This document shows, in pieces, positions 7,829-33,148 of a stretch of 33,148 nucleotides of DNA. Every line of letters starts with the position of its first letter. Position 1 is the stretch's first letter. The notes beneath the pieces are model-generated. The model searched no databases, had not been told where the DNA came from, and saw only the letters and a program-made list of their open reading frames with translations. A program made the position numbers and the translations under genes. The stretch covers positions 1-33,148 of the forward strand of contig CAZWTE010000002.1 of assembly GCA_964637465.1 (NCBI GenBank). Reading direction: 5' to 3'. Source of the stretch: an uncultured Gammaproteobacteria bacterium (GTDB lineage: Bacteria; Patescibacteriota; Microgenomatia; Daviesbacterales; UBA10151).

Positions 7829-8589
7829 ATCTCGCTCCTGATGGAGATTTTTTTACCCCTTAAATAATCTTTCAAATCTTTAATGGTTAATTCTCCAAAG
7901 TGAAATAGGGAAGCAGCAAGTGCCGCATCGGCGAGGCCTCTATTAAAGATTTCCACAAAATCCTCCAGCCTGCCGGCTCCGCCTGAGGCAATTATTGGCA
8001 CAGTAACAACCCCAGATACTCGTTTTGTCAGTTCCACATTAAATCCCTGTTTTGTGCCGTCAGTATCAATACTGGTTAACAATATTTCCCCGGCGCCTAA
8101 TTTAACAGCCTTTTTGGCCCACTCAACCGCTGATACGCCAGTATCGGTCATGCCTCCGTTAATAAAGACATTCCATCTGTTTTTGCTGACCTGTTTGGCA
8201 TCAAGCGATAACACTACGCACTGGCTGCCGAATTCTTTGGCGCAATCCGAAATCAGCGAAGGATTTTTAAATGCCCCGGTATTAACCGATACTTTATCAG
8301 CGCCGGCCCGGAGTATCATTCGCATATCCTCAACGGTTCTGATGCCTCCGCCAACCGAGAAGGGGATAGTTACCACTTCAGCTGTTCTTCTAACCACATC
8401 CAGTAAAATATCCCGGTTTTCCACTGTGGCTGTAATATCCAAAAATACCAGCTCATCAGCGCCTTCGTCACTGTACTTTTTAGCAAGCTGTACAGGATCT
8501 CCGGCATCCCGGAAATTAACAAACTGTATTCCTTTAACTACTTTGCCTTGAGTCATATCCAGACAAGGAACAATTCTTTTAGCCAACAT
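7825..8589 (-). CDS. hisF: imidazole glycerol phosphate synthase, cyclase subunit
   Basis: [15 protein letters not shown]; [12 protein letters not shown]; SVGGGIR; IASGGAG. This is the HisF signature, not the HisA one. Confidence 0.93.
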
Positions 8590-9229: not shown

Positions 9230-9816
9230 AGTTTTCCTTTCGTTGAAGGAATTTGATTGGCAATTTTCCGGTTTCTTTGACAAGCCATATTAATGGCCCG
9301 GGCCGTTGCTTTAAAAATTGCCTCAATTTTGTGATGCTCATTTTCCCCGTACTCCACCTTAATAAATAGATTTACCCTGGCATTTTGGGCAAAAGAGTCC
9401 CAAAAGTGTTTAACTAACTCTGTCGGTAAATCTCCGACTTTTTCTTTGTTTATTGGACACTCGAATCTAAAAGAGTACCTGCCGGCAAAATCTATCGCCA
9501 CCGTGGCAATTGCTTCATCCATAGGCAGGATAAAAAAGCCATAGCGGTTAATACCCTTCTTTTCTCCCAGGGCTTTTGCAAAGGTTTCCCCTAAAACAAT
9601 TGCGACATCCTCAACTGTGTGATGCTCGTCAACCCAAGTATCACCTATGGCTTTAATGTCCAAATCAAATAGTCCTTGTTTGCTAAATAAATCCAACATG
9701 TGGTTTAAAAAACCAATCGGTGTATCTATTTTTCTTTGGCCGGTGCCATCAATATTCAGAGCAATTTTGATATTGGTCTCGCTGGTTTTTCTTTGAACTA
9801 TTGCCTGGCGTTTCAT
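9226..9816 (-). CDS. hisB: imidazoleglycerol-phosphate dehydratase
   Basis: RKTSETNI; DEHHTVEDVAI; GENEHHKIEAIFKA. It forms an ATGA overlap with the stop of the upstream hisC fusion gene. Confidence 0.93.
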   Translation of the reverse strand: MKRQAIVQRKTSETNIKIALNIDGTGQRKIDTPIGFLNHMLDLFSKQGLFDLDIKAIGDTWVDEHHTVEDVAIVLGETFAKALGEKKGINRYGFFILPMDEAIATVAIDFAGRYSFRFECPINKEKVGDLPTELVKHFWDSFAQNARVNLFIKVEYGENEHHKIEAIFKATARAINMACQRNRKIANQIPSTKGKL

Positions 9817-11348: not shown

Positions 11349-11352
11349 AGGT

Positions 11353-12639
11353 TTAAAATCTGACTAAAACAGAATTTTTGTGAGCCGGCAGTTGCTCTAC
11401 TTCTGCAATAGTTCCGATTGCTTCTTTAATTTCGAGTAATCCGTTTTTGGTACATTTTTGGACTTGCATCCACTTGCCAAAAGCCTCTATCCCTAAAGGC
11501 GGGTGCATTTTGGCTGTGCCGCCCGTTGGCAAGACATGATTTGCTCCGGTGGCATAATCACCGCTTGATTTGGTTGTATAATCACCCAGGAAAACAGAAC
11601 CGGCATTAGTAATCTTGTTAACTAATTGCTCAGGTTTTTTTGTCATGATTTCCAAGTGCTCGGAAGCATACCGGTTAGCAAATTCAACTGCTTCGTCTAG
11701 TGAACCAACAATGGCAAATAAGCCATATTTTTCTAAAGATGTTTTAGCTCTTTCTTGAGTAGCCAGTTTTGGTAATTGTTTAGTAATCTCTTTGATTGTT
11801 TCTTCCGCCAGCAGTTTTGATGTGGTTAACAGGATGCAAGCGGAATCTGGGCCGTGTTCAGCGTCTGCTAATAAATCTGCTGCAATGAATTTGGGGTTGG
11901 CTGTGTCGTCCGCAATAATCAATACTTCAGAAGGTCCGGCCGGCATATCAATACTGATAGTTTGCAAGGCCAGTATTTTTGCGGCTGTGACATAAAGATT
12001 TCCTGCTCCAAAAATTTTATAGACACTGGGAATAGTGTTCGTACCATAAACCATGGCAGCAATTGCTTCTGCGCCACCAACTTTATAGATCTTTTTTATT
12101 CCTAACATATCAGCTGCCATTAAAGTTGGGGCAGGAGTTTTACCATCTGACTTGGCAGGGGAGCACATAATAATTTCTTTACAGCCAGCTACTTGGGCCG
12201 GGATCGCTGTCATTAAAACAGAAGAAGGGTAAACTGCTTTGCCACCCGGCACATAAATGCCCACTTTTTCAATTGGCCGCCAAACTCTCCAGACTGAAAT
12301 GCCTTTTTCGGTCTTCACAACAGTGTCTTTTTTGTTTTTCAGTTGGGCTTTTTGGACAGCGGTTATATTTTTGATCATTTGGTTTATTGATTTAATGAAC
12401 TTTCTATCTACATTCTGATAAGCCTTTTTGATTTCATCCCCGGTAACTTGTATTGAAAAAGGGGTCGGGCTGCCGGAAAACTTTTGGGAATATTTAATCA
12501 AAGCTTGATCGCCATTTTGCTTAACATCTTCCATGATTTTTTTAACCACCGGGATTACCTCCAGATAATTTTCGGAGGATCGTTTCATTATTTTTTTGTA
12601 ATCCTTTTTTGATAAGTCTTTTAAGTTAATGATTTTCAT
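11353..12639 (-). CDS. hisD: histidinol dehydrogenase
   Basis: [10 protein letters not shown]; AEHGPDS; SEHLEI; [15 protein letters not shown]. It forms an ATGA overlap with the hisG stop. Confidence 0.93.
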
Positions 12640-13283
12640 ATGATTATTTTTTCAAATTGCGCCACTAGCTTGCCTAATAGGATTTTTCTGCCATTTAACA
12701 ATGATTGTTTGTTTGAAATAAGTACTGTTTCAGAATTATATATTTTGGTAAGTATTCTTAAATCATTTACAGCAAGCGTGCGACCGGTTGAAGTAATATC
12801 AACTATGGCTTGTGCTATACCTAAGGCAGGAGCAATTTCAACAGATCCGCCTATGCGGGTAATCTTCACGGTAATACGGTTTTCTTTAAAGAAATTTTTT
12901 GTGGATTTTGGGTAGGTTGTAGCGATAGTTTTATTTTCTAAATCACTTAATTTTGTAATTTTTGATTCTTTTGGAACTGCTAGAACCAGTGAGCAAAACC
13001 CATATTTTAGATTGAGCAGCTTTTTTACTTTTGGCTTTTTTTCATTAAGCATATTCTGACCCAAAATGCCCAAATCAACCACGCCGGAGGCAACATAACC
13101 AGGAATGTCGTTGTTGCGGACGTAAAGAATTTCCAGGGGGAAATTTCGGCATAGGGAAAACAGCCTTTGTTTATAGCTTTCAAACTCCAGGCCGGATTTG
13201 CGCAAAAATTCCAGCGTTTCTTCGGTCAAACGTCCTTCTTTTTGAATTGCCAATTTTAAATTTTTAATACTTAAACTTGTCAT
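12636..13283 (-). CDS. hisG: ATP phosphoribosyltransferase, short form (about 215 aa, no C-terminal regulatory domain)
   Basis: LKLAIQKEGRL...DIPGYVASGVVDLGILG...DITSTGRTL. I placed the start at ATG 13283, which follows GAAAGGAAGG; the track start at 13331 lies inside the terminator hairpin. Confidence 0.88.
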   Translation of the reverse strand: MTSLSIKNLKLAIQKEGRLTEETLEFLRKSGLEFESYKQRLFSLCRNFPLEILYVRNNDIPGYVASGVVDLGILGQNMLNEKKPKVKKLLNLKYGFCSLVLAVPKESKITKLSDLENKTIATTYPKSTKNFFKENRITVKITRIGGSVEIAPALGIAQAIVDITSTGRTLAVNDLRILTKIYNSETVLISNKQSLLNGRKILLGKLVAQFEKIII

Positions 13284-13295
13284 ACCTTCCTTTCT

Positions 13296-13632
13296 AAGCC
13301 AACAAAAAACCTTCCGTTCTTTGCCCACCACAAAACGTGATGAACAAGGAACGGAAGGTTCAAAAAAAGGACCCTTCGACTTAGCTCAGGGCTATAGCCT
13401 CCCGCGGTCCCATCCTTTGTTCCATGTACCGTTACTGGTACGTGGCTCTTAGTGGCGACTTTGGTTTTCCAACATCGTCTGTTTCATTTTACGGTTAAAC
13501 TTCCGGCAAGTATTTGGCTTGCAGCCATGAACCAGAATAAATTCGGTTCATGGTCCTGAAGTGAAACTTTGTTTCTACTTCATGGACTCCTGGATCGTGA
13601 CTCCAGTGAAACGCTTTTGAATATTTAGTTGT
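13296..13632 (-). promoter_or_regulatory. candidate T-box riboswitch leader specific for tRNA-His, controlling the his operon
   Basis: T-box core AAAGGAUGGGACCGCG (13420-13403) matches the consensus AGGGUGGNACCGCG at all but one position. Helix A1 is GAACAAAGGA (13422-13413) paired with UCCUUGUUC (13350-13342). The 7-nt bulge is UGGGACC (13412-13406). Helix A2 is GCGGGAGG (13405-13398) paired with CCUUCCGU (13358-13351). The 3' strand of the antiterminator is the 5' strand of the terminator. The first leader hairpin displays CAC in its loop (13599-13597). Confidence 0.65.
13301..13360 (-). terminator. intrinsic terminator (attenuator) immediately upstream of the hisG RBS
   Basis: Minus strand reads AACCUUCCGUUC CUUGUU CAUCAC GUUUU GUGGUG GGCAAA GAACGGAAGGUU, a roughly 23-bp near-continuous hairpin at 13360-13308. 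It is followed by UUUUUGUU. Confidence 0.75.
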
Positions 13633-18195: not shown

Positions 18196-18229
18196 AAAAT
18201 CACCCTTACTTATTTCTTTCGTTATTTTG

Positions 18230-18312
18230 TGCCGGAGGAGGGATTTGAACCCTCACGGCCTTGCGACCAATAGTTTTTGAGACTATCCTGTATACCGTTC
18301 CAGCACCCCGGC
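18230..18312 (-). tRNA. tRNA-Leu (anticodon CAA), type II with long variable arm, CCA not encoded
   Basis: Minus strand: acceptor stem GCCGGGG/CTCCGGC (one G-U pair) and discriminator A. Anticodon stem ATAGT/ACTAT with loop CTCAAAA. Variable arm GGTCGCAAGGCC. T arm GAGGG-TTCAAAT-CCCTC. Confidence 0.9.
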
Positions 18313-22518: not shown

Positions 22519-23082
22519 ATGGCTTTAAATGTCACGGATTTAAGAAACGGGACTTTCTTTAAAGAAGGCAAGGATATTTTGCTGGTTTTGAATTACGAGC
22601 ATGTTAAAACAGGCAGGGGTTCCGGCAATATTAAGGTTAAAGTCCGCAATATTAGGAGCGGGGCAGTGACGGAAAAATCCTTTATTACGGGAGCCAGAGT
22701 AAATGAGGCTGATGTCAATAAAGTCAAAGGCCAATTCCTTTATCGGGACGGGGAAACTTTTAACTTTATGGATCCGATTTCTTTTGAACAATTTACTATT
22801 CCTGCCAATGTCATAGGTGACCAAGCTAAATTCTTAAAAGATGGTTTGGATGTGATTTTAATTGTATCTGAAGGTGAAGCTTTAGGGTTGGAGCTGCCAA
22901 TGAGCTTAGTGTATACCATTACCGAAACAGGTCCGGAAGAAAAAGGCAATACTGTATCTAATGTTTTCAAGGAAGCAGTTTTAGATAATGGTTTGGTAGT
23001 GAAAGTCCCCATGTTTATGAAAGTAGGAGAGAAAGTAAAGGTGGATACCAGGTCGGGAGAATATATTGAAAGAGTAAAATAA
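22519..23082 (+). CDS. efp: elongation factor P
   Basis: LRNGTFF...HVKTGRGSGNIKVKVRNIRSG...ETGPEEKG, with the three-domain EF-P layout. The tip of the beta3-beta4 loop is Arg33. Confidence 0.92.
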   Translation: MALNVTDLRNGTFFKEGKDILLVLNYEHVKTGRGSGNIKVKVRNIRSGAVTEKSFITGARVNEADVNKVKGQFLYRDGETFNFMDPISFEQFTIPANVIGDQAKFLKDGLDVILIVSEGEALGLELPMSLVYTITETGPEEKGNTVSNVFKEAVLDNGLVVKVPMFMKVGEKVKVDTRSGEYIERVK

Positions 23083-24553: not shown

Positions 24554-25444
24554 ATGTTTCGGGTACTTTTTTCTATTGGCAACTTATCTGTTTCTTCGTT
24601 TGGAGTTTTTTTGGCATTGGGATTTTTACTTGGCATATTTTTGATCTGGAGACTGGCCCGGGCTTGGGATTTAGATGAAGAGAGAGTTTTGGATTTGGTA
24701 TTGCTGGCCTTCTTGGGAGGGCTGGCAGGGGCGCGGGTTTATTTCGCGATAGAGAATTGGCAATATTTTGCCGTAAATCCGCTGAATTTGATTTTAATCA
24801 ACAAAATCCCCGGGTTTTCTTTTTGGGGCGGGTTTTTGGGCGGGTGGCTGACTCTATATCTGCTTGCCAGGCGGAAACGCCTGGACTTTTGGCAGCTGGC
24901 TGATATTGCCTCCATAGGACTGCTGGGAGGATTGGTATTATCCGGGGTGGGGTGTTTTTTAGGCAGTTGTAATACCGGCATCGTCTCAAAAGCTTTTTTT
25001 GCTGTCACCCAGGTGGGAGCTTTGGGTAAAAGATGGCCTGTCCAGATAATTGAAGCATTACTTTTGACGGTAGTTTTATCAAAAATTTGGTCACAAGCCA
25101 CCCGCTTTCATCAGAGAGGAAAAATAGTCAGCATGACGCTTATTTTAGTAGGCGGCACAAAGCTGATACTTGAGCCTTTAAAACAAAACCATTCAGAAAT
25201 CATTTTTTCCGGCATGTTTGTTATTTTAGGTATTGTTATTTTTTATCGGGTGACAAAACAAAATCCGGTTACACATCTTAAAGGATGGGGAATATTTTTG
25301 ATTAAGCTGTTAAACGATTCAAAGACCAGGACTTTGGTAGTGCAAAAAGTTAGTCAATACTGGTATAATCAGATAACCGGCATTGGCTGGAAGCTAAGGA
25401 ATTTGAAAAAATTACTAAGGAGATCCAATGTTAAGCTTTCCTAA
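24554..25444 (+). CDS. lgt: prolipoprotein diacylglyceryl transferase-like
   Basis: SFGVFLALGFLLG; GGLAGARVYF; WGGFLGGWL; RWPVQIIEAL (compare the Lgt block PtQLYE). I preferred the ATG at 24554 over the TTG at 24518. Confidence 0.7.
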   Translation: MFRVLFSIGNLSVSSFGVFLALGFLLGIFLIWRLARAWDLDEERVLDLVLLAFLGGLAGARVYFAIENWQYFAVNPLNLILINKIPGFSFWGGFLGGWLTLYLLARRKRLDFWQLADIASIGLLGGLVLSGVGCFLGSCNTGIVSKAFFAVTQVGALGKRWPVQIIEALLLTVVLSKIWSQATRFHQRGKIVSMTLILVGGTKLILEPLKQNHSEIIFSGMFVILGIVIFYRVTKQNPVTHLKGWGIFLIKLLNDSKTRTLVVQKVSQYWYNQITGIGWKLRNLKKLLRRSNVKLS

Positions 25445-25787
25445 AAAAACCCTGGAATTTATCAAAAGATACCTGCTAAGACAACAAAAAGAGGTAGAAA
25501 TGAACCTAAAAGGAGTTAGTGCGGACGATCCGGCTAAGAGTCCGGCTTTGGCAGAAAGTTCTGAACCGGGCACAGATTCCTATATTGCCGATACCCACAC
25601 CAGGACTGTAGTTTTAGAGCAGCAACTTAAAAGCGCAAAAACCAGTATTGCAACAGCCCTGGTAAAAATTAAAAAAGGCACTTATGGCAAGTGTGAAAAG
25701 TGTAACAACCAAATTCAGGTAGGCAGGCTTCTAGCCATGCCCACTGCCCAATATTGTGTGTCCTGCTCCAAGCAAAAGACTAAATAA
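25428..25787 (+). CDS. DksA/TraR-family C4 zinc-finger protein
   Basis: CEKCNNQI...AQYCVSCS four-Cys finger at the C-terminus, preceded by a coiled-coil-like region. The last roughly 64 nt contain repeat copy 1. Confidence 0.75.
   Translation: MLSFPKKTLEFIKRYLLRQQKEVEMNLKGVSADDPAKSPALAESSEPGTDSYIADTHTRTVVLEQQLKSAKTSIATALVKIKKGTYGKCEKCNNQIQVGRLLAMPTAQYCVSCSKQKTK
25724..25771 (+). repeat. 48-bp direct repeat, copy 1 (inside the 3' end of the DksA/TraR gene)
   Basis: CAGGCTTCTAGCCATGCCCACTGCCCAATATTGtGTGTCCTGCTCCAA is 47/48 identical to 32064-32111. Confidence 0.95.
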
Positions 25788-25862
25788 TTACCTCACGGGA
25801 TAAGGGTGTGGTATATTTCTATATGACTCAAACGGAGTTTTGAGTATTAATATTTCATCTTT

Positions 25863-26912
25863 ATGAATAAGCATATAATCAATCTTTCACGGAATGAAAA
25901 TCTTTACGGGTTCCCGAATAAAATATTACAAAAAACAGATAGGATATTAAATAGATTAGGACTAATTACTTATCGGAAAGAGAGTAACCTAAGAGAGAAA
26001 CTCAGTAAAAAACACAAAGTGAAAATAGACAATATTTTCATAGAAATGGGTGCTGAAGGTGCTTTACGTGAGATATTTGTTAATTTATCCCGTCTGACTG
26101 ATAGTAAAATATTATTAAGCGATATTTTGTGGGATTATTATAAGGAATTAGCAAAGCAGCAAAATTTGCTTACTGTTTTTTACCGGATCAAAAAAAATAA
26201 AAAAAAGAATACTTATGAATTTGATTTAGAAGAGATAAATACCGCAATTAAACAGGAAAAACCTACAGCCATAATAATAAATAATCCCCATAATCCTGCT
26301 GGCTATCAGATACCGGAAAAGAAGTTAGGCAGACTACTAAGAAAAATTAACAAAAAAATAATAGTTATTTTTGACGAAACTTATTTTGGATTCCGGAATA
26401 GTTATGATAATAGAGGTTTATTCATCAAACGATATCCTAATTTGATTGTCGTAAGAAGTTTTTCCAAACTTTACGCCGTAGCAGGTATTCGAATCGGTTA
26501 TTTGTTGATTGGAGATTATGCCCGCAAGAAACTAAATATCTATGCCCCTTACCTGGGGCATAATTTTATTGCAGAAGAGATTGCAAGTATGCTTTTGGAT
26601 GAAACAAAGTTCTATCAATCGATTAGAGAAGAAATTAATAGGCAGCGTGATGTTTTATACCATTATTTTAACCGCTTGAAGGGTTTTCAAGCCTATAAAT
26701 CAGTAGCAAATTTCTTATTAATTCGGATCAATTCAGAATTATATTCTCACATTGGATATAAACAATATATGGAACAGAATGGGTATATATTCAAATTATA
26801 TACAGAGGACAGATTGAAGAATTGTATAAGAATAACTATTCCTTTAAATGAACATATCCAGAAAATTATTAGACTGACTAACTCCTTTATAACAGGAAAA
26901 AACAATGAGTAA
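25863..26912 (+). CDS. PLP-dependent aminotransferase, class I/II (HisC-like family)
   Basis: LSRNENLYG; INNPHNPAG; RSFSKLYAVAGIRIGY (PLP Lys). The gene is very AT-rich and Lys/Asn-rich, and contains KKNKKKN. Confidence 0.8.
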   Translation: MNKHIINLSRNENLYGFPNKILQKTDRILNRLGLITYRKESNLREKLSKKHKVKIDNIFIEMGAEGALREIFVNLSRLTDSKILLSDILWDYYKELAKQQNLLTVFYRIKKNKKKNTYEFDLEEINTAIKQEKPTAIIINNPHNPAGYQIPEKKLGRLLRKINKKIIVIFDETYFGFRNSYDNRGLFIKRYPNLIVVRSFSKLYAVAGIRIGYLLIGDYARKKLNIYAPYLGHNFIAEEIASMLLDETKFYQSIREEINRQRDVLYHYFNRLKGFQAYKSVANFLLIRINSELYSHIGYKQYMEQNGYIFKLYTEDRLKNCIRITIPLNEHIQKIIRLTNSFITGKNNE

Positions 26913-27915
26913 AATTTTAGTCATGGGTGGTACTCAGTTTGTCGGTAAGGCTGTTGTTAAATATTTTATACAAAAAAACCATTCTGTAGACATCTTTACC
27001 AGAGGGAATATTGCAGTTGATTATGTTGGGATAAATCAACATATTAAGGGAGACAGAAAAAATAAGGATTTTGTAAGAAAAGCCTTAGCTGATAAAAAAT
27101 ATGATTTTGTAATAGATATATCTGCGTATACGGTAGAGGATACGGCCATTTTACTTCCTAATCTCAATAAAAGCCATCTGAAAAAATATATTTTCATCAG
27201 TTCCGGAGCAGTTTATAACAAGCCTAAATCTTCTATTCAGCCGGTGTTATTTAAAGAAAACTCTCCTGCGAAACTAATTCCTCATCCTGCTTGGGGGAAT
27301 TACGGTTTAGAAAAGAAAAAGGCTGAAAATTATATAAGGGAACAATCTAAAAAGAGGGCAATTAATTTTATTATTATTCGTCCGTCCTATATCTATGGAA
27401 TAGGGAATAATTTATTAAGAGAGCAATTTTATTTTTCCCGGATTGAATCAGGACAGGCAATATTTATCCCGGCAAATACCAGAACACATATCCAATTTAT
27501 TAATATTGATGATTTATATATTTTCATAGAACAATGCTTAATAAATCCAAAAGCGCGAAATCAAGTTTATAATGTGGCTCACCCCCAAATATTAACCTGG
27601 CGGGTTTTTGTAAATTTTATCATAAAAGCCTGTGGAAAAAAAACAAGAGTTTATGAAATATCCAATAAAATAGAACCAAATGCGCGGTTATATTCGCCTT
27701 TCCGCGATGAAAATATGGCATTAGATATTTCAAAATTACTAAAACATGGCTTTTCTTCGCCGGGGGTTGATCTTGAAGCAGGTTTAAATATAGCATACAC
27801 TTATTTTAAATTTACAAATGAAGGAAAAAATAAAAGATTTGTGGGATTTAAGGATCCAAAAATGACTAGACTGGATGAGATATCTGTTTTGATGAAAAAA
27901 CAAGATGATTTTTGA
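26905..27915 (+). CDS. NAD(P)-dependent epimerase/dehydratase (extended SDR)
   Basis: ILVMGGTQFVGKAV Rossmann motif, FISSGAVY, and a YGLEKKKAE YxxxK catalytic motif. It overlaps the upstream gene by 8 nt (ATGAGTAA). Confidence 0.8.
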   Translation: MSKILVMGGTQFVGKAVVKYFIQKNHSVDIFTRGNIAVDYVGINQHIKGDRKNKDFVRKALADKKYDFVIDISAYTVEDTAILLPNLNKSHLKKYIFISSGAVYNKPKSSIQPVLFKENSPAKLIPHPAWGNYGLEKKKAENYIREQSKKRAINFIIIRPSYIYGIGNNLLREQFYFSRIESGQAIFIPANTRTHIQFINIDDLYIFIEQCLINPKARNQVYNVAHPQILTWRVFVNFIIKACGKKTRVYEISNKIEPNARLYSPFRDENMALDISKLLKHGFSSPGVDLEAGLNIAYTYFKFTNEGKNKRFVGFKDPKMTRLDEISVLMKKQDDF

Positions 27916-28891
27916 GAGATTAAACAATAATTCAAGCATTGCCGAAATTACAGAGGCATTACTCGTAAGAGGAAGTGAACAGCAAAAGTTGTTTGAGAAA
28001 GCAAGCGAATTTCGCGGTGACAAGGTATATATCAGGGCAGCGATCGAACCCAGTAATATTTGCCGGCAAAATTGTACTTACTGCGGCATGAGAAGAGACA
28101 ACAAAGAACTCGCACGGTTCCGTATTACCGATACACCATTGGATAAATTGGTAGATGAGGCTATTTCTATACCTGAAGTTGATTTTGTGCATATTGCCCT
28201 TGGTGAAGATATCAAATTCCCCTTTAATCAAGTAGCTAATTTAATCAGAAGGGTGAATAGCGCCGGAAAAACAATCTCTCTTGTATTAGGAGAATTGCCC
28301 GAGGCTGTTTATTCAATGTTATATGATGCCGCGGAAGGCAACCCAGCCCGATTTACAATAAATTTGGAGACAACAGATAACGAATTATTCGAAAAGATTA
28401 AGCCAGGACACCGTTTCGCAAAAAGGCTTGGTAAGCTGGAAGCGATAGAAAGAATAGGTTTTCAACCTTGTTCCGGCATAATAGCAGGGTTACCGGACCA
28501 GACTTATGAAATAGTGGCAAAAGATTTATTATTTCTTGTAAACTATCACAGGCTTGTTGATATCAGCGCCAGTACGTTTATCCCTAGTCCCAGTTCTCCG
28601 CTTGAGGGTTGTTTTCGTGGTGACGATAATCTTACTTTAAATTTCTTAAGCCTGATTCGTTTAATTACAAAAAATCCATCGCTTACTATCAGCGCATCGA
28701 GTTCTCTTGCTGAAGACGCAAGGCAGACAGCTTTGCAGTTCTTTGCCAACTTGGTTACTATACATCTGTTGCCCAAGCAATACCAAGGTTTATATCTGAT
28801 ATATAACGGCGAAAACCGCAGCTTCCAACAGATTGATGCTATTCGGAAGCGCGTTTCGGATTTAGGCCTGAGGTTTAATAAGTCAGCATAA
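27905..28891 (+). CDS. radical SAM enzyme of the HydE/PylB/BioB clade
   Basis: IEPSNICRQNCTYCGMRRDN (CxxxCxxC). Downstream blocks are LGELPE, ETTDNELF, GLPDQT, DLLFL and FIPSPSSPL, in the order I recall for HydE/PylB-type enzymes. It overlaps the upstream gene by 11 nt. Confidence 0.8.
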   Translation: MIFERLNNNSSIAEITEALLVRGSEQQKLFEKASEFRGDKVYIRAAIEPSNICRQNCTYCGMRRDNKELARFRITDTPLDKLVDEAISIPEVDFVHIALGEDIKFPFNQVANLIRRVNSAGKTISLVLGELPEAVYSMLYDAAEGNPARFTINLETTDNELFEKIKPGHRFAKRLGKLEAIERIGFQPCSGIIAGLPDQTYEIVAKDLLFLVNYHRLVDISASTFIPSPSSPLEGCFRGDDNLTLNFLSLIRLITKNPSLTISASSSLAEDARQTALQFFANLVTIHLLPKQYQGLYLIYNGENRSFQQIDAIRKRVSDLGLRFNKSA

Positions 28892-28892
28892 T

Positions 28893-29996
28893 ATGTTTAA
28901 TATATTAGTACTAAATTCTGATAAATCCACGGGAATAAATTTTACTAAATCACTTCAGCTTGCGAAAAAAGAATATAATAGAGATTATTACATTATTGGT
29001 ACTTCAACCGATCTTATTCGTTCGAAGCTTTGCAATAACGATCAGACCATTTTGCTTAATCAGAGATTTAAATCTCCATTAGAAGTTATGAAATACATTG
29101 AGAAAAAATTACAGAAGAAAATTAATTTAGTGTATGAAACAAAGAGCGCGGAACGCATGTTGCAAATTAATTCTTACAGAGAAAGACTACCGGTTTTTAT
29201 CCCTTCTGCCAAATCAATTAGAATATTTGAAAATAAATTTAGAACTTATTACATCTTAAAAAAGAATGGATTTCCCGTACCGGAAACCCGGAAACCGAAA
29301 AATCGGCGGGAAGTAAAAAGAATTATATCCGAAATAGGACATCCAAATGTGTGGATTAGGCGCTCGGCTGGTCAAGGAGGTAAAGGGTCATTTATATCAA
29401 ATGATGCGGATTATATTGCTGATATAATTGATCGGGATAACAACGGTTGGGGAAATTATATTATTTCGGAAAGATTGCCTAAACAAGATCTTTCGAAGGG
29501 ATGGGGGCCTCATTTAAAAGATGATTTATTACCAGGGGAAATGGTTACTTGGATTGCTTTGTATGACAACGGAGATTTGGTTGCTTCTCAAACCCGGAAG
29601 AGATTGTATTGGGAACATTCTGATTTAACACCATCTGGAGTAACCGGATATTCCGGAGCCAATATGACAATTAAACTTGATAGCCTACACGATTTATGTG
29701 ATAAGATGATACGTTCGATCGATAATAAGCCGCAGGGTGCTATGGGGGCAGATTTTGTTGTTGATAGCGATGGTGCTCCAAAGTTAACCGAAATTCAATC
29801 CAGCAGGTTTTTTACCTCAACTTATCCGCTCACATTATTAGGTTTAAATTTTCCTGATTTATATATCAATTGTTTTAGAAAAAAAAGCATTCAAAAGGGA
29901 ATCATAAATCCATGTAAACCAGGTATGATTTATATTCAGAGATTTGGGGCTGATAGTGTTATGGTTGATAGAGATACTTTAAAAGACGGCATTTAG
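28893..29996 (+). CDS. ATP-grasp ligase
   Basis: KFRTYYILKKNGFPVPET...WIRRSAGQGGKGSF...GAMGADFVVDSDGAPKLTEIQSSRF is an ATP-grasp fold pattern. The start is 1 nt after the radical SAM stop. Confidence 0.75.
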   Translation: MFNILVLNSDKSTGINFTKSLQLAKKEYNRDYYIIGTSTDLIRSKLCNNDQTILLNQRFKSPLEVMKYIEKKLQKKINLVYETKSAERMLQINSYRERLPVFIPSAKSIRIFENKFRTYYILKKNGFPVPETRKPKNRREVKRIISEIGHPNVWIRRSAGQGGKGSFISNDADYIADIIDRDNNGWGNYIISERLPKQDLSKGWGPHLKDDLLPGEMVTWIALYDNGDLVASQTRKRLYWEHSDLTPSGVTGYSGANMTIKLDSLHDLCDKMIRSIDNKPQGAMGADFVVDSDGAPKLTEIQSSRFFTSTYPLTLLGLNFPDLYINCFRKKSIQKGIINPCKPGMIYIQRFGADSVMVDRDTLKDGI

Positions 29997-30068
29997 AGTT
30001 CACTTAAGAGATTAAAATATTTCGAAGTATTGACTTTAGTTTGGTATTATGCTAAAAACCAACACACT

Positions 30069-31979
30069 ATGAGTTTGGTTAAGGCGGAAGGAGAACCTGT
30101 AGGTATTACCTCTCCGGGGGACTTAGAGAAATTATCTAAGTTAGTCAGGTATTATATTTTAACTTCAACATCTGCGGCCGGTTCCGGACATCCTACATCC
30201 TCTTTATCCGCAGTAGAGCTTACATCAACACTCCTTTTTGGCGGTTTTTTCAGATTTGATCTGGGTAATAAAGATAATCCGCATAACGACCGTTTGATTT
30301 TTTCCAAAGGTCACGCTTCGCCGCTTTTTTACTCTTTGTTTGCGGCAGCCGGTACAATTTCTGAAGATGAACTTTTAACAATGCGTAAATTTGGCAGCCG
30401 TTTAGAAGGTCATCCAACTCTGGAGTTTCCTTATACAGAGGTACCTACCGGTTCTTTAGGTCAGGGTTTATCAGTAGGTTTGGGAATGGCGTTAAACAGT
30501 AAATATATTGATAAAACCGGATTTAGGACTTTTGTGCTTATGGGTGATTCTGAAGTGGCAGAAGGTTCTGTGTGGGAAGCAATGGGGGTTGCCTCTTTTT
30601 ATAAACTGGATAATTTAGTCGGCATTTTAGATGTTAACAGGTTGGGTCAAAGTAGGGAGACTATGCTGGGTCATGATATTAAAACTTATGAAAAAAGAAT
30701 TTCTTCTTTTGGTTGGGAAGCAGTAGTTTTAGAAGATGGCCATGATATAGGACAAATAATTGCTGCCTATGATAGAACCTTAGCCTGTAGGGACAAACCG
30801 ATTATGATTATTGCCAGAACCTTAAAAGGTAAGGGCATATCGTTTTTAGAAGATAAAGAAAACTGGCACGGAAAAGCCCTTTCTAAAGAAAAATTGAAAT
30901 TAGCGCTTGGAGAACTTGGGTATATTGATAGAGATCTGAGAGGCAGTATTACACCACCAGAAGAAATTAAGCATCAAGCAACAGAATTAAAAAGCGATCT
31001 GCAAGTTTCACCAACTCATCAAGTTGAGTCAACTACGGACTACTTAATAGGTAATTTACTTACGACAAGGAATGCATTTGGTAATGCGCTAGTAAGGCTT
31101 TTCCCAAGATACCCTAATATGGTTGTCATGGATGGGGAAACTTCAAATTCCACATTTTCTGAATTATTTGCCAAAGCTTATCCACAGAATTATTTTGAGA
31201 TGTTTATTGCGGAACAAAATATGGCAGGAGCTGCCCTAGGTTTGGCAAAACAGGGTAAAATACCCTTTATTACCGCGTTTGCAGCTTTTTTTAGCCGTGC
31301 TTTTGATCAGATTAGGATGGCGCAATACGCTGATGCCAATATTAAATATTGCGGCTCTCATGCTGGAGTTTCAATAGGTGAAGACGGATCATCTCAAATG
31401 GGACTGGAGGATATAGCAATGTTCCGTTCACTCCTAGGAAGTGTTGTATTATATCCTTCCGATGCTGTCTCGGCTGAAAAGTTAACCGAAGAGGCCATCA
31501 AACACCGCGGCATCGTTTATATCCGAACGACCAGAAAAGATACACCTGTTATTTACCGTGCAGACGAAGAATTCCCAATAGGGGGCAGCAAGATTTTACG
31601 CGAAAGTCCGCTTGATAAAGTTACTGTAATCGGTGCAGGTGTTACACTACATGAAGCGCTAAAAGCTTATGATTTGTGTAAGGACAAAGGTATCTCAATC
31701 AGAGTAATTGATTTATATTCAATAAGTCCACTGGATGTAAAAACATTAAGGCGGTCTGCTGAAGACACAAAAGCCGTAATTACTGTTGAAGATCATCATA
31801 AGGCCGGAGGGTTGGGGGAAGCTGTTGCGGCGACATTATCGGGTACAGGTAAAAGCGTAAATATTATGGCTGTAGAAAAAATACCGCACAGCGGCAAACC
31901 GGATGAATTGCTTGAATATGAAGGGATTAATGCTGAGGCTATTTATTCGAAAGTAACACAATTGCTATCTTCAAAATAA
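30069..31979 (+). CDS. tkt: transketolase (single-chain, about 636 aa)
   Basis: SGHPTSSLSAVEL; DRLIFSKGHASPLFYS; LEGHP; GSLGQGLSVGLG; MGDSEVAEGSVWEA. The C-terminal Pyr and TKC domains are present. I preferred the ATG at 30069 over the TTG at 30030. Confidence 0.88.
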   Translation: MSLVKAEGEPVGITSPGDLEKLSKLVRYYILTSTSAAGSGHPTSSLSAVELTSTLLFGGFFRFDLGNKDNPHNDRLIFSKGHASPLFYSLFAAAGTISEDELLTMRKFGSRLEGHPTLEFPYTEVPTGSLGQGLSVGLGMALNSKYIDKTGFRTFVLMGDSEVAEGSVWEAMGVASFYKLDNLVGILDVNRLGQSRETMLGHDIKTYEKRISSFGWEAVVLEDGHDIGQIIAAYDRTLACRDKPIMIIARTLKGKGISFLEDKENWHGKALSKEKLKLALGELGYIDRDLRGSITPPEEIKHQATELKSDLQVSPTHQVESTTDYLIGNLLTTRNAFGNALVRLFPRYPNMVVMDGETSNSTFSELFAKAYPQNYFEMFIAEQNMAGAALGLAKQGKIPFITAFAAFFSRAFDQIRMAQYADANIKYCGSHAGVSIGEDGSSQMGLEDIAMFRSLLGSVVLYPSDAVSAEKLTEEAIKHRGIVYIRTTRKDTPVIYRADEEFPIGGSKILRESPLDKVTVIGAGVTLHEALKAYDLCKDKGISIRVIDLYSISPLDVKTLRRSAEDTKAVITVEDHHKAGGLGEAVAATLSGTGKSVNIMAVEKIPHSGKPDELLEYEGINAEAIYSKVTQLLSSK

Positions 31980-32063
31980 CAATATTTTTAATACCCTGTT
32001 TTGTACTGATAACTTTAGTAAAACACTATTTGTGAATTGCTCAAATTACTCTGGTTTGTTGGA

Positions 32064-32111
32064 CAGGCTTCTAGCCATGCCCACTGCCCAATATTGCGTG
32101 TCCTGCTCCAA
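32064..32111 (+). repeat. 48-bp direct repeat, copy 2
   Basis: 47/48 identical to 25724-25771, with a single T/C difference at 25754 versus 32094. Confidence 0.95.
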
Positions 32112-32136
32112 AAAAACTTCCAAAAAATCCAGATAA
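32065..32136 (+). pseudogene. displaced 3'-end remnant of a DksA/TraR zinc-finger gene
   Basis: In the frame of copy 1 it reads RLLAMPTAQYCVSCSKKTSKKSR-stop (TAA 32134-32136). There is no start codon or N-terminal portion upstream. Confidence 0.7.
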
Positions 32137-32140
32137 CATT

Positions 32141-32974
32141 CTAAACTTTTTGTGCAGTAAGTATGTAATATCCCGCTTTACCGTCCCTAAGAAGGTTTTG
32201 TAGACCAGTAAGCAATGCCTCGATGTCTTGAGGTGGATCTTTTGCACCTATATTTTGACTATCAGAAGGAAAATAATGTTGTGGTGCGATTACATTTTCG
32301 GTTACATCTCTTGGATTTATACAAGAGAAGTCATTTAAGAATAAGAGAATGATTAATTCTTGGATATGAATGATATTGGGAATATACATATGTGCTTTGA
32401 GTCCTTCGATGATGTCAGTTTCTTCTTTTGTTAATTTATCTGTATGCATTAGTATATCTGCTATTGTGATTCTGCCTTTGGATTTTAAAGTTCTATTTGA
32501 TTCTTGTATTAAACCTTTCTTGTTTTGAGAGTGGATAAAACTTTCACAGAAAATAATTCTATCGAAAATTTCACTCCGAAAAGCAATATGTTCGTAGTCT
32601 TGGACAGAGAATATAGGATAAGGAGATCTTTCGTGTTCATTATATTGATTTGCGAGATGAATATTATTTATTAATATATCTATTCCATATACTTTTGCCG
32701 CTGGTTCGATGCTGTTAATCTCGAATGCTAAAATTCCTACGCCACACCCCGCATCGAGGATGGATTGTTCAGGTTTAATTTCGCTAAGTTCTACGATTTT
32801 CTGAGACATTTGTAAAGCTGCATTAGAACTGCTTACAGGATTTTGCCAGTCTTGATAGCCGATATGCATAGCATAAAGACCTTTCTTTTTTAGATCAGGT
32901 GACCACCGCAAGAAAAGAGGTTCTGTTTCCCGATAGAAGTTTTCTACTCCGTGATACTTTTCATTTTTGATCAT
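32141..32974 (-). CDS. class I SAM-dependent methyltransferase
   Basis: ILDAGCGVGILAFE (motif I), with downstream acidic and hydrophobic motifs (VYGIDI, DRIIFCESF). It converges on tkt. Confidence 0.75.
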   Translation of the reverse strand: MIKNEKYHGVENFYRETEPLFLRWSPDLKKKGLYAMHIGYQDWQNPVSSSNAALQMSQKIVELSEIKPEQSILDAGCGVGILAFEINSIEPAAKVYGIDILINNIHLANQYNEHERSPYPIFSVQDYEHIAFRSEIFDRIIFCESFIHSQNKKGLIQESNRTLKSKGRITIADILMHTDKLTKEETDIIEGLKAHMYIPNIIHIQELIILLFLNDFSCINPRDVTENVIAPQHYFPSDSQNIGAKDPPQDIEALLTGLQNLLRDGKAGYYILTAQKV

Positions 32975-33148
32975 AATTAAAATAGTATTTTAGCATAATG
33001 ATTTCTGTTATGAGCTCAAATTAGTATATTGCTTTGATAATTAATTCGATATAGAATCGATATAGAATAAGAAAATCTTAGTTAATTCTTGAGAGACTAG
33101 CTATTAAATGTCAAGAACCGAAATGAATACAACTAAAAGTCCTGAAAA

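What the first reader, a model, noticed from the sequence alone, without database searches (positions are those of the whole stretch)
25863..32974. Orphan biosynthetic cassette: aminotransferase - SDR - HydE/PylB-like radical SAM - ATP-grasp - transketolase (+ convergent methyltransferase)
Five co-directional genes are packed with 8-nt and 11-nt overlaps, a 1-nt gap and one 72-nt gap. That packing argues for a single translationally coupled unit. The enzyme set comprises PLP transamination, NAD(P)-dependent redox or epimerisation, radical C-H chemistry, ATP-dependent amide-bond ligation, C2-ketol transfer and methylation. I know of no characterised pathway with this combination. It lacks the sugar-phosphate cyclase of C7-cyclitol and mycosporine clusters. 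It lacks the DegT-type aminotransferase of deoxysugar clusters. It also lacks any NRPS/PKS, regulator or exporter. The cassette sits in an otherwise housekeeping neighbourhood, and repeats bracket the first five genes. The likely product is a modified amino acid, pseudopeptide or amino-sugar derivative. I consider this the best candidate in the window for an undescribed system.
Basis: partly seen in the sequence, partly recalled or inferred. Interest (0 to 1): 0.8.

Follow-up and report, generated by a model that had tools for sequence, protein, structure and literature searches.

The report
Rare aminotransferase–radical SAM–ATP-grasp biosynthetic cassette
A small operon in a Candidate-Phyla-Radiation-type bacterium belongs to a very rare gene module, scattered across distant phyla, that probably makes an amine from a phosphorylated precursor and joins it to an acid through an amide bond; its product is unknown and no member has been studied.

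Summary

**What holds up**
- The core is four genes (25863-29996): a HisC/CobD-like PLP enzyme, an extended SDR, a HydE-clade radical SAM enzyme and an ATP-grasp ligase.
- It is not a chance adjacency. The ATP-grasp family is tiny, with 20 hits at E ≤ 1e-30 among 1.84 billion representatives.
- A HisC-like PLP gene lies beside it in 15 of 16 loci that have enough flank.
- These loci come from Patescibacteria, Alphaproteobacteria, Acidimicrobiia, Actinomadura and other sources.
- The partner is either a HydE-like rSAM (one monophyletic subclade) or a GMC flavoprotein, never both. An APH-type kinase and a HAD phosphatase are frequent additions.

**What does not hold up**
- The transketolase is a genuine, Daviesbacteria-type enzyme. 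It is linked to the cassette only in the closest relative and has its own promoter-like element.
- The methyltransferase lies outside the repeat and is not conserved.

**Likely logic (inferred):** oxidise a phospho-substrate, transaminate it, then ligate the amine to a carboxylate.

**Closest analogues:** the *Campylobacter* serinol-phosphate glucuronamide system and methanofuran MfnC/MfnD. These are analogous, not homologous gene for gene.

**Verdict:** a real, undescribed variant of a known kind of pathway. Interest is moderate.

The parts
25724..25788 (+). Direct repeat, copy 1. It is the 3' end of the dksA/traR-type zinc-finger gene (25428-25787) and the putative left junction of the inserted block.
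   Evidence: 65 nt at 88% identity, with the first 33 nt identical; 0 copies expected by chance. Pfam zf-dskA_traR.
25863..26912 (+). HisC/CobD-family PLP enzyme (349 aa). It is a paralogue of the window's own HisC and is predicted to aminate (or decarboxylate) a phosphorylated substrate.
   Evidence: PF00155 at 135 bits. TIGR01141 hisC at 183.2, below the cutoff of 276.55; CobD at 125.9, below 290.55. It is 29% identical to the window's true HisC. The PLP Lys and the C-terminal Arg are conserved across the module ATs.
26905..27915 (+). Extended SDR (NAD-dependent epimerase/dehydratase type, 336 aa). It is an accessory partner of the rSAM.
   Evidence: PF01370 at 69.9 bits; no equivalog passes its cutoff. 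The GxxGxxG and YxxxK motifs can be read in the sequence. It is adjacent to the rSAM in L001, L009 and L011.
27905..28891 (+). Radical SAM enzyme of a distinct HydE-like subclade (328 aa).
   Evidence: CX3CX2C at C53/C57/C60. TIGR03956 at 136.8, below 254.6; PylB at 82.8, below 348.2. Model pLDDT 94; HydE TM 0.87-0.90 at 31% identity; PylB TM 0.83. Only 5 close homologues exist. The module-associated rSAMs are monophyletic.
28893..29996 (+). ATP-grasp ligase of a very small, uncharacterised family (367 aa). It is the signature gene of the module.
   Evidence: Only sub-threshold Pfam hits; the best is ATPgrasp_ST at 22.9, below 31.4. Model pLDDT 91.7, a generic ATP-grasp fold. RizA, BacD, PylC and PurK match at TM 0.6-0.7 with no more than 16% identity. 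20 hits at E ≤ 1e-30 among 1.84e9 representatives.
30030..30060 (+). Promoter-like element (TTGACT, 17 nt, TGCTAAAAA) in the 72-nt gap upstream of the transketolase. It is conserved in L001.
   Evidence: Read directly from the sequence. It is a consensus match only and the automatic scan did not list it.
30069..31979 (+). Bona fide transketolase. It is linked to the cassette in this lineage only, so it is either a passenger or a lineage-specific supplier of sugar phosphate.
   Evidence: NF004559 at 832.8, above 488. The nearest homologues are Ca. Daviesbacteria TKs at 70-74% identity. Those sit next to transaldolase and have no cassette. The TK is co-linear in L001-L004 and absent in L116.
32064..32128 (+). 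Direct repeat, copy 2. It is an orphan 3' fragment of the dksA-like gene and the putative right junction.

Best explanation
**What it is**
- A four-gene operon (HisC/CobD-like PLP enzyme, extended SDR, HydE-clade radical SAM enzyme, ATP-grasp ligase) sits on a 6.3-kb block that also carries a transketolase.
- The block was inserted into the 3' end of a dksA-like gene in a Daviesbacteria-type (Patescibacteria) genome.

**Shown**
- The operon is one version of a rare, horizontally scattered module built around a dedicated ATP-grasp ligase and a HisC-like PLP enzyme.
- These two are joined by either a HydE-like rSAM (with or without an SDR) or a GMC flavoprotein oxidoreductase.
- An APH-type kinase and a NagD-type HAD phosphatase are frequently present.

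**Inferred chemistry**
1. A phosphorylated alcohol (sugar or polyol phosphate) is converted to a keto-phosphate. The rSAM/SDR pair does this here. I propose this pair as an oxygen-independent alternative to the flavoprotein; oxygen independence was not tested.
2. The HisC-like enzyme transaminates the keto-phosphate to an amino-phosphate, as HisC does with imidazole-acetol phosphate.
3. The ATP-grasp enzyme activates a carboxylate as an acyl phosphate and couples it to that amine, forming an amide.
4. In relatives, a HAD phosphatase then removes the phosphate handle.

**Open points**
- The product is an unknown amino-polyol or amino-sugar amide (pseudopeptide).
- The transketolase is most likely a co-resident, separately promoted gene that at most feeds sugar phosphates into the pathway.
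- The methyltransferase is unrelated.
For: **Conservation of the block**
- The block 25862-31946 is 75% identical in nucleotide sequence to L001, with unrelated flanks. The same 8-nt and 11-nt overlaps recur there.

**Co-occurrence**
- AT, rSAM and ATP-grasp also occur together in L005-7, L011, L036-L039, L042 and L061. L009 (AT-SDR-rSAM), L010 and L116 (rSAM-ATP-grasp) show part of the set on truncated contigs.
- The AT is present in 15 of 16 loci with adequate flank.
- The rSAM is present in 12 loci and a GMC oxidoreductase in 4, never both.

**Matching gene frames**
- L036: rSAM-HAD-ATPgrasp-APH-AT. L013: HAD-ATPgrasp-APH-GMC-AT.
- L021 carries an ATP-grasp::APH fusion protein.

**Specificity of the partners**
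- The module rSAMs form one clade apart from generic HydE-like proteins.
- All module ATs hit hisC best and CobD next, all below threshold.
- They keep the PLP Lys and the basic pair at the positions I recall as HisC's phosphate-binding residues (residue roles are from memory of E. coli HisC).
- The window has its own HisC fused to a histidinol phosphatase, so the cassette AT is not needed for histidine synthesis.

**Hint at the substrate type**
- The more distant ATP-grasp relatives (~30% identity) sit between a DegT aminotransferase and a Gfo/Idh/MocA oxidoreductase. An SDR, a HAD and glycosyltransferases are alongside. The wider family is therefore tied to oxidation/transamination of sugars.

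**Precedents**
- ATP-grasp enzymes ligate a carboxylate to an amine through an acyl phosphate (PMC8141765).
- Characterised analogue: Cj1437 transaminates DHAP to serinol phosphate. The Cj1438 C-terminal domain forms the amide with ATP. The Cj1435 HAD phosphatase then removes the phosphate (PMC11800397).

**Insertion**
- Direct repeat and low GC in AT, SDR and ATP-grasp.
Against: - No substrate or product is known for any member, so every chemical step is inferred from family membership and gene context.
- The window cassette itself has neither a kinase nor a HAD phosphatase, so the 'phosphate handle' idea rests on relatives.
- HydE-like enzymes are not known alcohol oxidases. The rSAM could instead carry out a rearrangement (as PylB does) or C-S/C-C chemistry.
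- rSAM and GMC being alternatives in the same frame does not prove that they catalyse the same step.
- The AT could be a decarboxylase of the CobD type.
- One close ATP-grasp locus (L035) has no AT.
- The block contains no integrase, and no empty site was found, so the insertion mechanism is unproven.
Confidence: 0.5

Rival explanations
1. All five genes form one pathway, and the transketolase is an obligatory enzyme. It builds the 2-ketose phosphate that the aminotransferase then aminates, which would replace the kinase and oxidoreductase found in other versions of the module.
For: - The TK lies inside the repeat-bounded block.
- It stays co-linear with the cassette in L001-L004 although both flanks differ.
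- In other Daviesbacteria the TK sits with transaldolase, so here it has been displaced or duplicated.
- The window and L001 TKs form their own branch.
- The window version lacks the kinase and GMC oxidoreductase.
Against: - The TK scores as an ordinary equivalog. It is 70-74% identical to housekeeping Daviesbacteria TKs, against 76% to the L001 TK.
- Its GC content matches the host.
- It follows a 72-nt gap that holds a conserved promoter-like element.
- No TK is present in L116, L005, L011, L036-39 or any other module locus.
- The 'TK' hit in L035 is a housekeeping DXS.
Confidence: 0.3
2. The module decorates a cell-surface polymer or lipid rather than making a free small molecule. It would attach an amino-alcohol or amino-sugar to a uronic acid, peptidoglycan or glycolipid carboxylate, as the Campylobacter capsule serinol/ethanolamine glucuronamide system does.
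For: - The best Pfam hit of the ATP-grasp is the 'sugar-transfer associated ATP-grasp' family, though below threshold.
- Distant relatives lie in DegT/SDR/GT2/GtrA/RmlA glycan clusters.
- L021 has a GT2 and a CrtO-type acyltransferase directly upstream.
- In Cj1438C the amidation takes place on the growing polysaccharide (PMC11800397).
Against: - Most close loci, including the window, contain no glycosyltransferase, flippase or polymerase.
- L005-7 instead carries an ABC exporter, an alpha-oxoamine synthase and a nucleotidyltransferase, like a small-molecule cluster.
Confidence: 0.3
3. It is a pyrrolysine-like route to a non-canonical amino acid. The rSAM would be a PylB-type mutase and the ATP-grasp a PylC-type ligase. 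The SDR/AT pair would replace PylD to form an imine ring.
For: - PylB is the second-best match for the rSAM.
- PylC is among the structural neighbours of the ATP-grasp.
- The enzyme classes line up one to one.
Against: - PylB scores 82.8 against a cutoff of 348.2, and HydE is clearly the closer match.
- No PylC or PylD model hits at E ≤ 0.01.
- PylC reaches only TM 0.62, no better than PurK or biotin carboxylase.
- The window holds only one tRNA, tRNA-Leu.
- Kinase, phosphatase and HisC-type partners in relatives point to phospho-substrates.
Confidence: 0.06
4. The adjacency is fortuitous: housekeeping genes (HisC, a GalE-like epimerase, BioB/HydE, a PurK-like enzyme, TK) happen to lie together.
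For: - The surrounding window is housekeeping: his operon, EF-P, GalU, Lgt and DnaB.
- The TK is ordinary.
Against: - None of the four core proteins reaches any equivalog cut-off.
- A true HisC is encoded elsewhere in the window.
- The ATP-grasp and rSAM clades are extremely rare.
- The same genes recur together in unrelated phyla.
- No hydA, hydF or hydG was seen in the window.
Confidence: 0.03

Closest known systems
Campylobacter jejuni HS:2 capsule glucuronamide system (Cj1437 DHAP-to-serinol-P transaminase, Cj1436 Ser-P decarboxylase, Cj1438 C-terminal ATP-dependent amidoligase, Cj1435 HAD phosphatase; PMC11800397)
   Same: - Same logic and enzyme classes. A PLP enzyme makes a phosphorylated amine, and an ATP-grasp-fold ligase joins it to a carboxylate.
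- A HAD phosphatase then removes the phosphate.
- Related loci here have exactly AT + ATP-grasp + HAD.
   Different: - Cj1438C is a TupA-like ATP-grasp (PF14305). It shows no profile similarity to this family (hhalign probability 0.2%).
- The Campylobacter system has no rSAM, SDR, GMC oxidoreductase or kinase.
- The window cassette has no HAD and no glycosyltransferase context.
- I could not compare the sequences of Cj1436 and Cj1437.
HydE, the [FeFe]-hydrogenase H-cluster maturase (radical SAM)
   Same: HydE is the best sequence and structure match to the rSAM: PDB E = 4e-44, TM 0.87-0.90, 31% identity. Both have a CX3CX2C motif and a full TIM-barrel.
   Different: - The score is below the equivalog cut-off (136.8 against 254.6).
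- The rSAM has no C-terminal Cys triad.
- No hydrogenase or hydF/hydG genes are nearby.
- It belongs to a separate clade that always travels with an ATP-grasp ligase.
Histidine pathway pair HisC + histidinol-phosphate phosphatase
   Same: The PLP fold and motifs are shared. A keto-phosphate becomes an amino-phosphate, and a HAD phosphatase follows. The window itself encodes these two as one fused protein at 9813-11348.
   Different: The cassette AT is only 29% identical to that HisC and falls below the hisC cut-off. Its partners are a ligase and an rSAM, not his genes.
Pyrrolysine biosynthesis PylB-PylC-PylD
   Same: The enzyme classes line up: an rSAM of the same superfamily branch, an ATP-grasp ligase and a dehydrogenase.
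   Different: No Pyl model is passed and there is no pylS/pylT. The extra HisC-like enzyme and the kinase/phosphatase in relatives do not fit.
Methanofuran biosynthesis MfnC (transaminase acting on a phosphorylated furan aldehyde) and MfnD (ATP-grasp tyramine-glutamate ligase) (PMC8141765)
   Same: A transaminase that acts on a sugar-phosphate-derived carbonyl is combined with an ATP-grasp amide ligase and a kinase.
   Different: No sequence-level link was tested. MfnD does not ligate the MfnC product directly. There is no MfnB/E/F and no methanogen or methylotroph context.
Aminoglycoside/aminonucleoside logic (dehydrogenase or rSAM dehydrogenase followed by an aminotransferase, e.g. BtrN/BtrS; puromycin Pur10/Pur4/Pur3, PMC11641026)
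   Same: An alcohol is oxidised and then transaminated. A phosphatase is present, and kinases or nucleotidyltransferases act as possible self-protection. There is precedent (from my own knowledge) for an rSAM enzyme replacing an NAD or flavin dehydrogenase in anaerobes.
   Different: BtrN belongs to a different rSAM class (SPASM/twitch). Those aminotransferases are DegT-type. Pur6 is not an ATP-grasp enzyme. No cyclitol synthase is present.

Membership tests
HydE ([FeFe]-hydrogenase maturase) | Score at or above the NCBIfam TIGR03956 equivalog cut-off (254.6 bits) | tested here: not met
   136.8 bits. The rSAMs of related modules score 166-205, also below the cut-off.
HydE ([FeFe]-hydrogenase maturase) | Radical SAM CX3CX2C cluster and a HydE-type full TIM-barrel fold | tested here: met
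   C53/C57/C60. Foldseek TM 0.87-0.90 to T. maritima HydE.
HydE ([FeFe]-hydrogenase maturase) | Genomic association with hydA, hydF and hydG | tested here: not met
   None appears among the annotated ORFs of the 33-kb window or in any related locus. The rest of the genome was not seen.
Pyrrolysine biosynthesis (PylB/PylC/PylD) | PylB equivalog score at or above 348.2, plus PylC and PylD models and pylS/pylT | tested here: not met
   PylB scores 82.8. No PylC or PylD hit at E ≤ 0.01. The only tRNA is tRNA-Leu(CAA).
Histidinol-phosphate aminotransferase HisC | TIGR01141 score at or above 276.55, and location in a his operon | tested here: not met
   183.2 bits. The window's real HisC (9813-11348) scores 284.4 and lies between hisD and hisB.
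HisC/CobD clade of fold-type I PLP enzymes | PLP lysine (SxSK), the Asp/Asn/Arg cofactor contacts and the C-terminal substrate-binding Arg | tested here: met
   The alignment of 14 module ATs with the window HisC conserves these residues. The second basic residue is R or K.
Threonine-phosphate decarboxylase CobD | TIGR01140 score at or above 290.55 | tested here: not met
   125.9 bits.
Transketolase | NF004559 equivalog at or above 488 bits, with three TK domains | tested here: met
   832.8 bits; Transketolase_N, Transket_pyr and Transketolase_C are all present.
TupA-like ATP-grasp amidoligase (Cj1438C type) | Membership of PF14305, or profile similarity to Cj1438C | tested here: not met
   Cj1438C matches PF14305 at 130 bits. 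hhalign of the A3 family profile against Cj1438C gives probability 0.2%. The window protein has no PF14305 hit.
ATP-grasp superfamily | ATP-grasp fold with the conserved ATP-binding Lys and the Mg-binding acidic/Asn residues | tested here: met
   Model pLDDT 91.7. Foldseek probability 1.0 to RizA, BacD, PurK, PylC and biotin carboxylase. K115, D287, E300 and Q302 are invariant in the family alignment; their roles in ATP and Mg binding are my assignment, not tested here.
Sugar-transfer associated ATP-grasp (PF14397) | Pfam gathering score of 31.4 | tested here: not met
   22.9 bits. Some homologues carry a precomputed PF14397 hit.
Integrative genomic island | Direct repeats at both borders that duplicate the 3' end of the target gene | tested here: met
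   25724-25788 and 32064-32128.
Integrative genomic island | An integrase/recombinase, and an empty site in relatives | tested here: inconclusive
   All five ORFs between the repeats are enzymes. The look-up of the neighbouring methyltransferase found no other contig. L001 has no flanking repeat.
Known anti-phage defence systems (PADLOC) | A match of any cassette protein to a PADLOC model | tested here: not met
   No hit for AT, SDR, rSAM or ATP-grasp at E ≤ 1e-3.

The most novel reading that the evidence does not exclude
The HydE-clade radical SAM enzyme is an oxygen-independent replacement for a GMC flavoprotein oxidoreductase inside an otherwise conserved kinase/phosphatase/HisC-like/ATP-grasp pathway. 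That would be a new reaction type for the HydE/PylB/BioB branch: oxidation, dehydration or rearrangement of a phosphorylated polyol or amino compound. It would also imply a new class of amino-polyol amide metabolite made by organisms that include genome-reduced Patescibacteria.
Probability: 0.3. Interest if true: 0.75.

Novelty: new variant of a known kind. Interest (0 to 1): 0.55.

Why it matters
- **Orphan HydE-like enzymes.** These radical SAM enzymes are common in genomes without hydrogenases, and their functions are unknown. This cassette places one subclade in a fixed, small set of partners: a HisC-like PLP enzyme and a dedicated ATP-grasp ligase. It also has a natural 'swap' against a flavoprotein oxidoreductase. 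That narrows the possible substrates and makes the enzyme testable in vitro.
- **Specialised metabolism in the Candidate Phyla Radiation.** It is one of few candidate specialised-metabolite operons in a Candidate-Phyla-Radiation-type genome, where biosynthetic capacity is thought to be minimal (a general impression, not tested here).
- **A new ligase family.** It defines an ATP-grasp family with no characterised or structurally solved member.
- **Limits.** The practical consequence is modest until a product is identified.

Tried and rejected
- **Promoter/terminator scan of 25300-33148.** Counts were no higher than in shuffled sequence.
- **Viral contigs.** No relative of the ATP-grasp was found, so there is no evidence for a phage origin.
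- **PADLOC defence models.** No hit for any cassette protein.
- **Empty insertion site.** The methyltransferase is not on record elsewhere. The identical rSAM occurs only on two short contigs.
- **Flanking repeats in L001/L002.** None found.
- **Literature.** Searches for rSAM + ATP-grasp + HisC-type clusters and for HydE-like/PylB-like enzymes found nothing relevant. Three Campylobacter papers are not held.
- **Puromycin Pur6 as a homologue of the ligase.** Rejected, because Pur6 is not an ATP-grasp enzyme.
- **EF-P modification.** The EF-P gene lies 3 kb upstream (22519-23082). I dropped the idea because no related locus shown to carry an EF-P gene.
- **L003 ATP-grasp-TK fusion ORF as Rosetta-stone evidence.** Rejected. 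It is a 156-bp deletion of an otherwise 100% identical sequence and removes invariant C-terminal residues of the ligase.
- **TK-like gene in L035.** It is a housekeeping DXS.
- **PDB profile search with the ATP-grasp family.** It matched only the generic nucleotide-binding segment.

Full report
**1. Observation**

The six ORFs sit at the stated coordinates with the stated spacing:
- AT 25863-26912
- SDR 26905-27915 (8-nt overlap)
- rSAM 27905-28891 (11-nt overlap)
- ATP-grasp 28893-29996 (1-nt gap)
- TK from the ATG at 30069 (72-nt gap) to 31979
- a convergent methyltransferase at 32141-32974

Pfam and NCBIfam confirm the enzyme classes.

The bracketing repeat is real. A 65-nt direct repeat lies at 25724-25788 and 32064-32128. 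Its first 33 nt are identical, and it occurs twice in the window against zero expected. Copy 1 is the 3' end of a dksA/traR zinc-finger gene. Copy 2 is an orphan fragment that still reads in frame to a stop codon.

GC content differs between the genes:

| Gene or region | GC |
|---|---|
| AT | 0.30 |
| SDR | 0.32 |
| ATP-grasp | 0.35 |
| rSAM | 0.41 |
| TK | 0.40 |
| Rest of window | 0.41 |

The simplest reading is that a 6.3-kb block inserted by recombination within the dksA 3' end. This is an inference: the block holds no integrase, and I could not find an empty site.

**2. Host and neighbourhood**

- The nearest named relatives of the TK are Candidatus Daviesbacteria / Patescibacteria enzymes at 70-74% identity.
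- The rest of the window is housekeeping. It includes proteases, RF, HisS, DnaB, an M1 peptidase, EF-P, GalU and Lgt.
- It also holds a full his operon, in which HisC is fused to a histidinol-phosphate phosphatase (9813-11348).
- That HisC passes the hisC equivalog cut-off (284.4 against 276.55).
- The cassette AT scores 183.2 and is 29% identical to it. The cassette AT is therefore a divergent paralogue and not the histidine enzyme.

**3. The individual proteins**

*rSAM*
- It has the CX3CX2C motif and a confidently modelled fold (pLDDT 94).
- HydE is the closest match (TM 0.87-0.90, 31% identity), then PylB (TM 0.83) and BioB.
- It fails both the HydE and PylB equivalog cut-offs and lacks a C-terminal cysteine triad.
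- Among 5.8 billion proteins only five close homologues exist, at 48-79% identity. After them, identity drops to 37% or less.

*ATP-grasp*
- Only sub-threshold Pfam hits were found. The best is 'sugar-transfer associated ATP-grasp'.
- The model has pLDDT 91.7. It matches RizA, BacD, PylC, PurK, PurD and biotin carboxylases at TM 0.6-0.7 with 16% identity or less.
- A family profile finds only the nucleotide-binding segment in the PDB.
- The family is tiny. There are about 25 clusters in the word-indexed search.
- The exhaustive search of 1.84 billion representatives gave 390 hits at E ≤ 1e-3, 190 at ≤ 1e-10 and 20 at ≤ 1e-30.
- The close subfamily occurs in 6 of 185,579 species representatives.

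*SDR*
- It is an extended epimerase/dehydratase-type enzyme with intact GxxGxxG and YxxxK motifs. No equivalog is matched.

*TK*
- It is a bona fide transketolase (832.8 bits against a cutoff of 488).

**4.

*Nearest relatives*
- Locus L001 and near-identical L002-L004 (rSAM 79% identical) carry AT-SDR-rSAM-ATPgrasp-TK with the same overlaps.
- DNA similarity to the window runs exactly from 25862 to 31946, at 75% identity. Both flanks are unrelated: an antitoxin-like gene lies upstream and a HAD hydrolase downstream.
- L009 shows AT-SDR-rSAM.
- L116 (ATP-grasp 60% identical) shows rSAM-ATPgrasp followed by unrelated convergent genes, with no TK.

*More distant loci*
- L005-L007 come from a low-GC organism. 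They embed AT-rSAM-ATPgrasp in a larger cluster with an ABC exporter, an alpha-oxoamine synthase, a nucleotidyltransferase and a classical SDR.
- I scanned the genome and metagenome collections with the ATP-grasp alignment. I then ran phmmer and Pfam on the neighbouring ORFs.
- This gave 21 distinct loci with close or intermediate ATP-grasp homologues.

*Co-occurrence counts*
- A HisC-like AT is present in 15 of the 16 loci that have enough flank.
- A HydE-like rSAM is present in 12 loci and a GMC oxidoreductase in 4, never both.
- An APH-type kinase and a NagD-type HAD phosphatase are frequent.

*Representative gene orders*

| Locus | Source | Gene order |
|---|---|---|
| L036 | metagenome | rSAM-HAD-ATPgrasp-APH-AT |
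| L011 | Alphaproteobacteria | SDR-rSAM-HAD-ATPgrasp-AT |
| L013 | NCBI assembly GCA_040384205.1 | HAD-ATPgrasp-APH-GMC-AT |
| L020 | Saccharimonadales | ATPgrasp-AT-HAD-GMC-APH |
| L022 | Actinomadura sp. BRA 177 | HAD-ATPgrasp-APH-AT-GMC |
| L021 | Acidimicrobiia | ATPgrasp::APH fusion protein |

*Specificity*
- All module rSAMs are HydE-like and sub-threshold.
- They form a single clade separate from generic HydE-like proteins.

The co-localisation is therefore far beyond chance. The conserved core is ATP-grasp + HisC-like AT, with rSAM (± SDR) or GMC as alternatives.

**5. Transketolase and methyltransferase**

*Transketolase*
- In other Daviesbacteria the TK lies in a malic enzyme-GDH-(Rpe)-TK-transaldolase cluster without the cassette.
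- The window and L001 TKs form a sister branch to those enzymes.
- The TK is absent from every module locus outside the window/L001 lineage.
- The gap upstream of it contains TTGACT-17/18 nt-TGCTAAAAA, conserved between the window and L001.
- I conclude that the TK is linked to the cassette in this lineage but is not part of the conserved core. I put the chance that it is functionally required at about 0.3.

*Methyltransferase*
- It lies outside the repeat and is replaced by a HAD hydrolase in L001. It is not part of the unit.

**6. Mechanism**

*What is established for the families*
- ATP-grasp enzymes couple a carboxylate to an amine or thiol through an acyl phosphate (PMC8141765).
- To my knowledge, the characterised HisC/CobD-clade enzymes act on phosphate esters (histidinol-P, Thr-P, Ser-P).
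- The module ATs keep the PLP lysine, the invariant C-terminal Arg and a preceding Arg/Lys. I recall this basic pair as the phosphate-binding residues of E. coli HisC; that assignment is from memory and was not tested here.

*What the contexts add*
- A kinase and a HAD phosphatase travel with the module, and one kinase is fused to the ligase.
- The more distant ATP-grasp relatives (~30% identity) sit between a DegT aminotransferase and a Gfo/Idh/MocA oxidoreductase. An SDR, a HAD, GT2, GtrA and RmlA lie alongside.
- The wider family is thus tied to oxidise-then-transaminate chemistry on sugars.

*Inferred scheme*
1. Phospho-alcohol to keto-phosphate, by rSAM/SDR here and by GMC (after the kinase) elsewhere.
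2. Keto-phosphate to amino-phosphate, by the AT.
3. Amino-phosphate to amide, by the ATP-grasp ligase.
4. Dephosphorylation by the HAD phosphatase in relatives.

*What is not shown*
- The substrate and the acid partner are unknown.
- The rSAM may oxidise, dehydrate or rearrange its substrate.
- The AT may transaminate or decarboxylate.
- The product may be a free metabolite or a surface decoration.

**7. Comparison with known systems**

- The closest functional analogue is the C. jejuni HS:2 glucuronamide pathway (PMC11800397, PMC13276843):
  - Cj1437 transaminates DHAP to serinol-P.
  - Cj1436 decarboxylates Ser-P.
  - The C-terminal domain of Cj1438 performs the ATP-dependent amidation.
  - Cj1435, a HAD phosphatase, removes the phosphate.
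- Cj1438C, however, is a TupA-like ATP-grasp with no profile similarity to this family. The resemblance is analogy, not membership.
- Other analogies: methanofuran MfnC/MfnD (PMC8141765), HisC plus histidinol phosphatase, PylBCD, and the dehydrogenase/aminotransferase logic of aminoglycosides and puromycin (PMC11641026). In puromycin the ligase Pur6 is not an ATP-grasp enzyme.
- The membership tests for HydE, PylB/C/D, HisC, CobD and PF14305 all fail. Transketolase passes.

**8. Verdict**

This is a real, horizontally mobile and previously undescribed module. I could not run curated BGC databases against it. It is built from known enzyme superfamilies and follows a recognisable chemical logic, so I rate it a new variant of a known kind and not categorically new.

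Interest is moderate, at 0.55.

Noticed in passing
window 6041-13331 (minus strand): A complete-looking histidine operon lies in a Patescibacteria-type genome: hisG 12636-13331, hisD 11353-12639, hisC fused to a histidinol-phosphate phosphatase domain 9813-11348 (511 aa), hisB 9226-9816, hisH 8579-9283, hisA/F 7825-8589. hisS follows at 6041-7255. Such genomes usually lack amino-acid biosynthesis, and I have not seen the HisC::HisN fusion described.
   Followed up: partly
L003:4439-4440 (compared with L001:4603-4758): L003 is 100% identical to L001 except for a 156-bp deletion. The deletion removes the last ~36 codons of the ATP-grasp gene and the intergenic region, and creates a 955-aa ATP-grasp-TK fusion ORF. 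It removes invariant ligase residues, so it looks like a loss-of-function population variant or an assembly artefact, not a functional fusion.
   Followed up: partly
L021:6994-9102: In an Acidimicrobiia MAG the ATP-grasp ligase is fused to an APH-type kinase in one 702-aa protein. A GT2 glycosyltransferase and a CrtO-like acyltransferase precede it. The fusion argues that kinase and ligase act in the same pathway.
   Followed up: partly
L045-L113 (e.g. L050:5118-17724): A much larger family of ATP-grasp proteins, about 30% identical and sharing the QxRKRLY[WF]E motif, sits in a strongly conserved cluster. The order is DegT aminotransferase, Gfo/Idh/MocA oxidoreductase, ATP-grasp, SDR, HAD, GT2, GtrA, a large membrane protein and RmlA. 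It looks like an uncharacterised N-acylated amino-sugar surface modification.
   Followed up: partly
L005:687-11326 (also L006, L007): A low-GC organism carries AT-rSAM-ATPgrasp inside a bigger putative biosynthetic cluster. It holds a 73-aa lipoprotein-like ORF, an ABC exporter, a 450-aa protein and a 380-aa P-loop protein without Pfam families. An alpha-oxoamine synthase, an NTP_transf_2 nucleotidyltransferase and a classical SDR are also present.
   Followed up: partly
window 30030-30060 and L001:4724-4755: A promoter-like element with an extended -10 (TTGACT, 17/18 nt, TGCTAAAAA) is conserved upstream of the transketolase in both genomes, although overall nucleotide identity is only 75%.
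   Followed up: partly
window 32141-32974 (minus strand): The convergent class I methyltransferase gives a weak match to the PADLOC model mad2 (47.6 bits) over its generic methyltransferase domain. This is probably not meaningful.
   Followed up: no
L035:4939-7214: This is the one close ATP-grasp homologue (49% identity) without a HisC-like neighbour. It is preceded instead by an MDH/LDH-like 2-hydroxyacid dehydrogenase, and a housekeeping DXS lies nearby.
   Followed up: partly
window 18229-18312 (minus strand): A single tRNA-Leu(CAA) gene is the only tRNA in the window.
   Followed up: no
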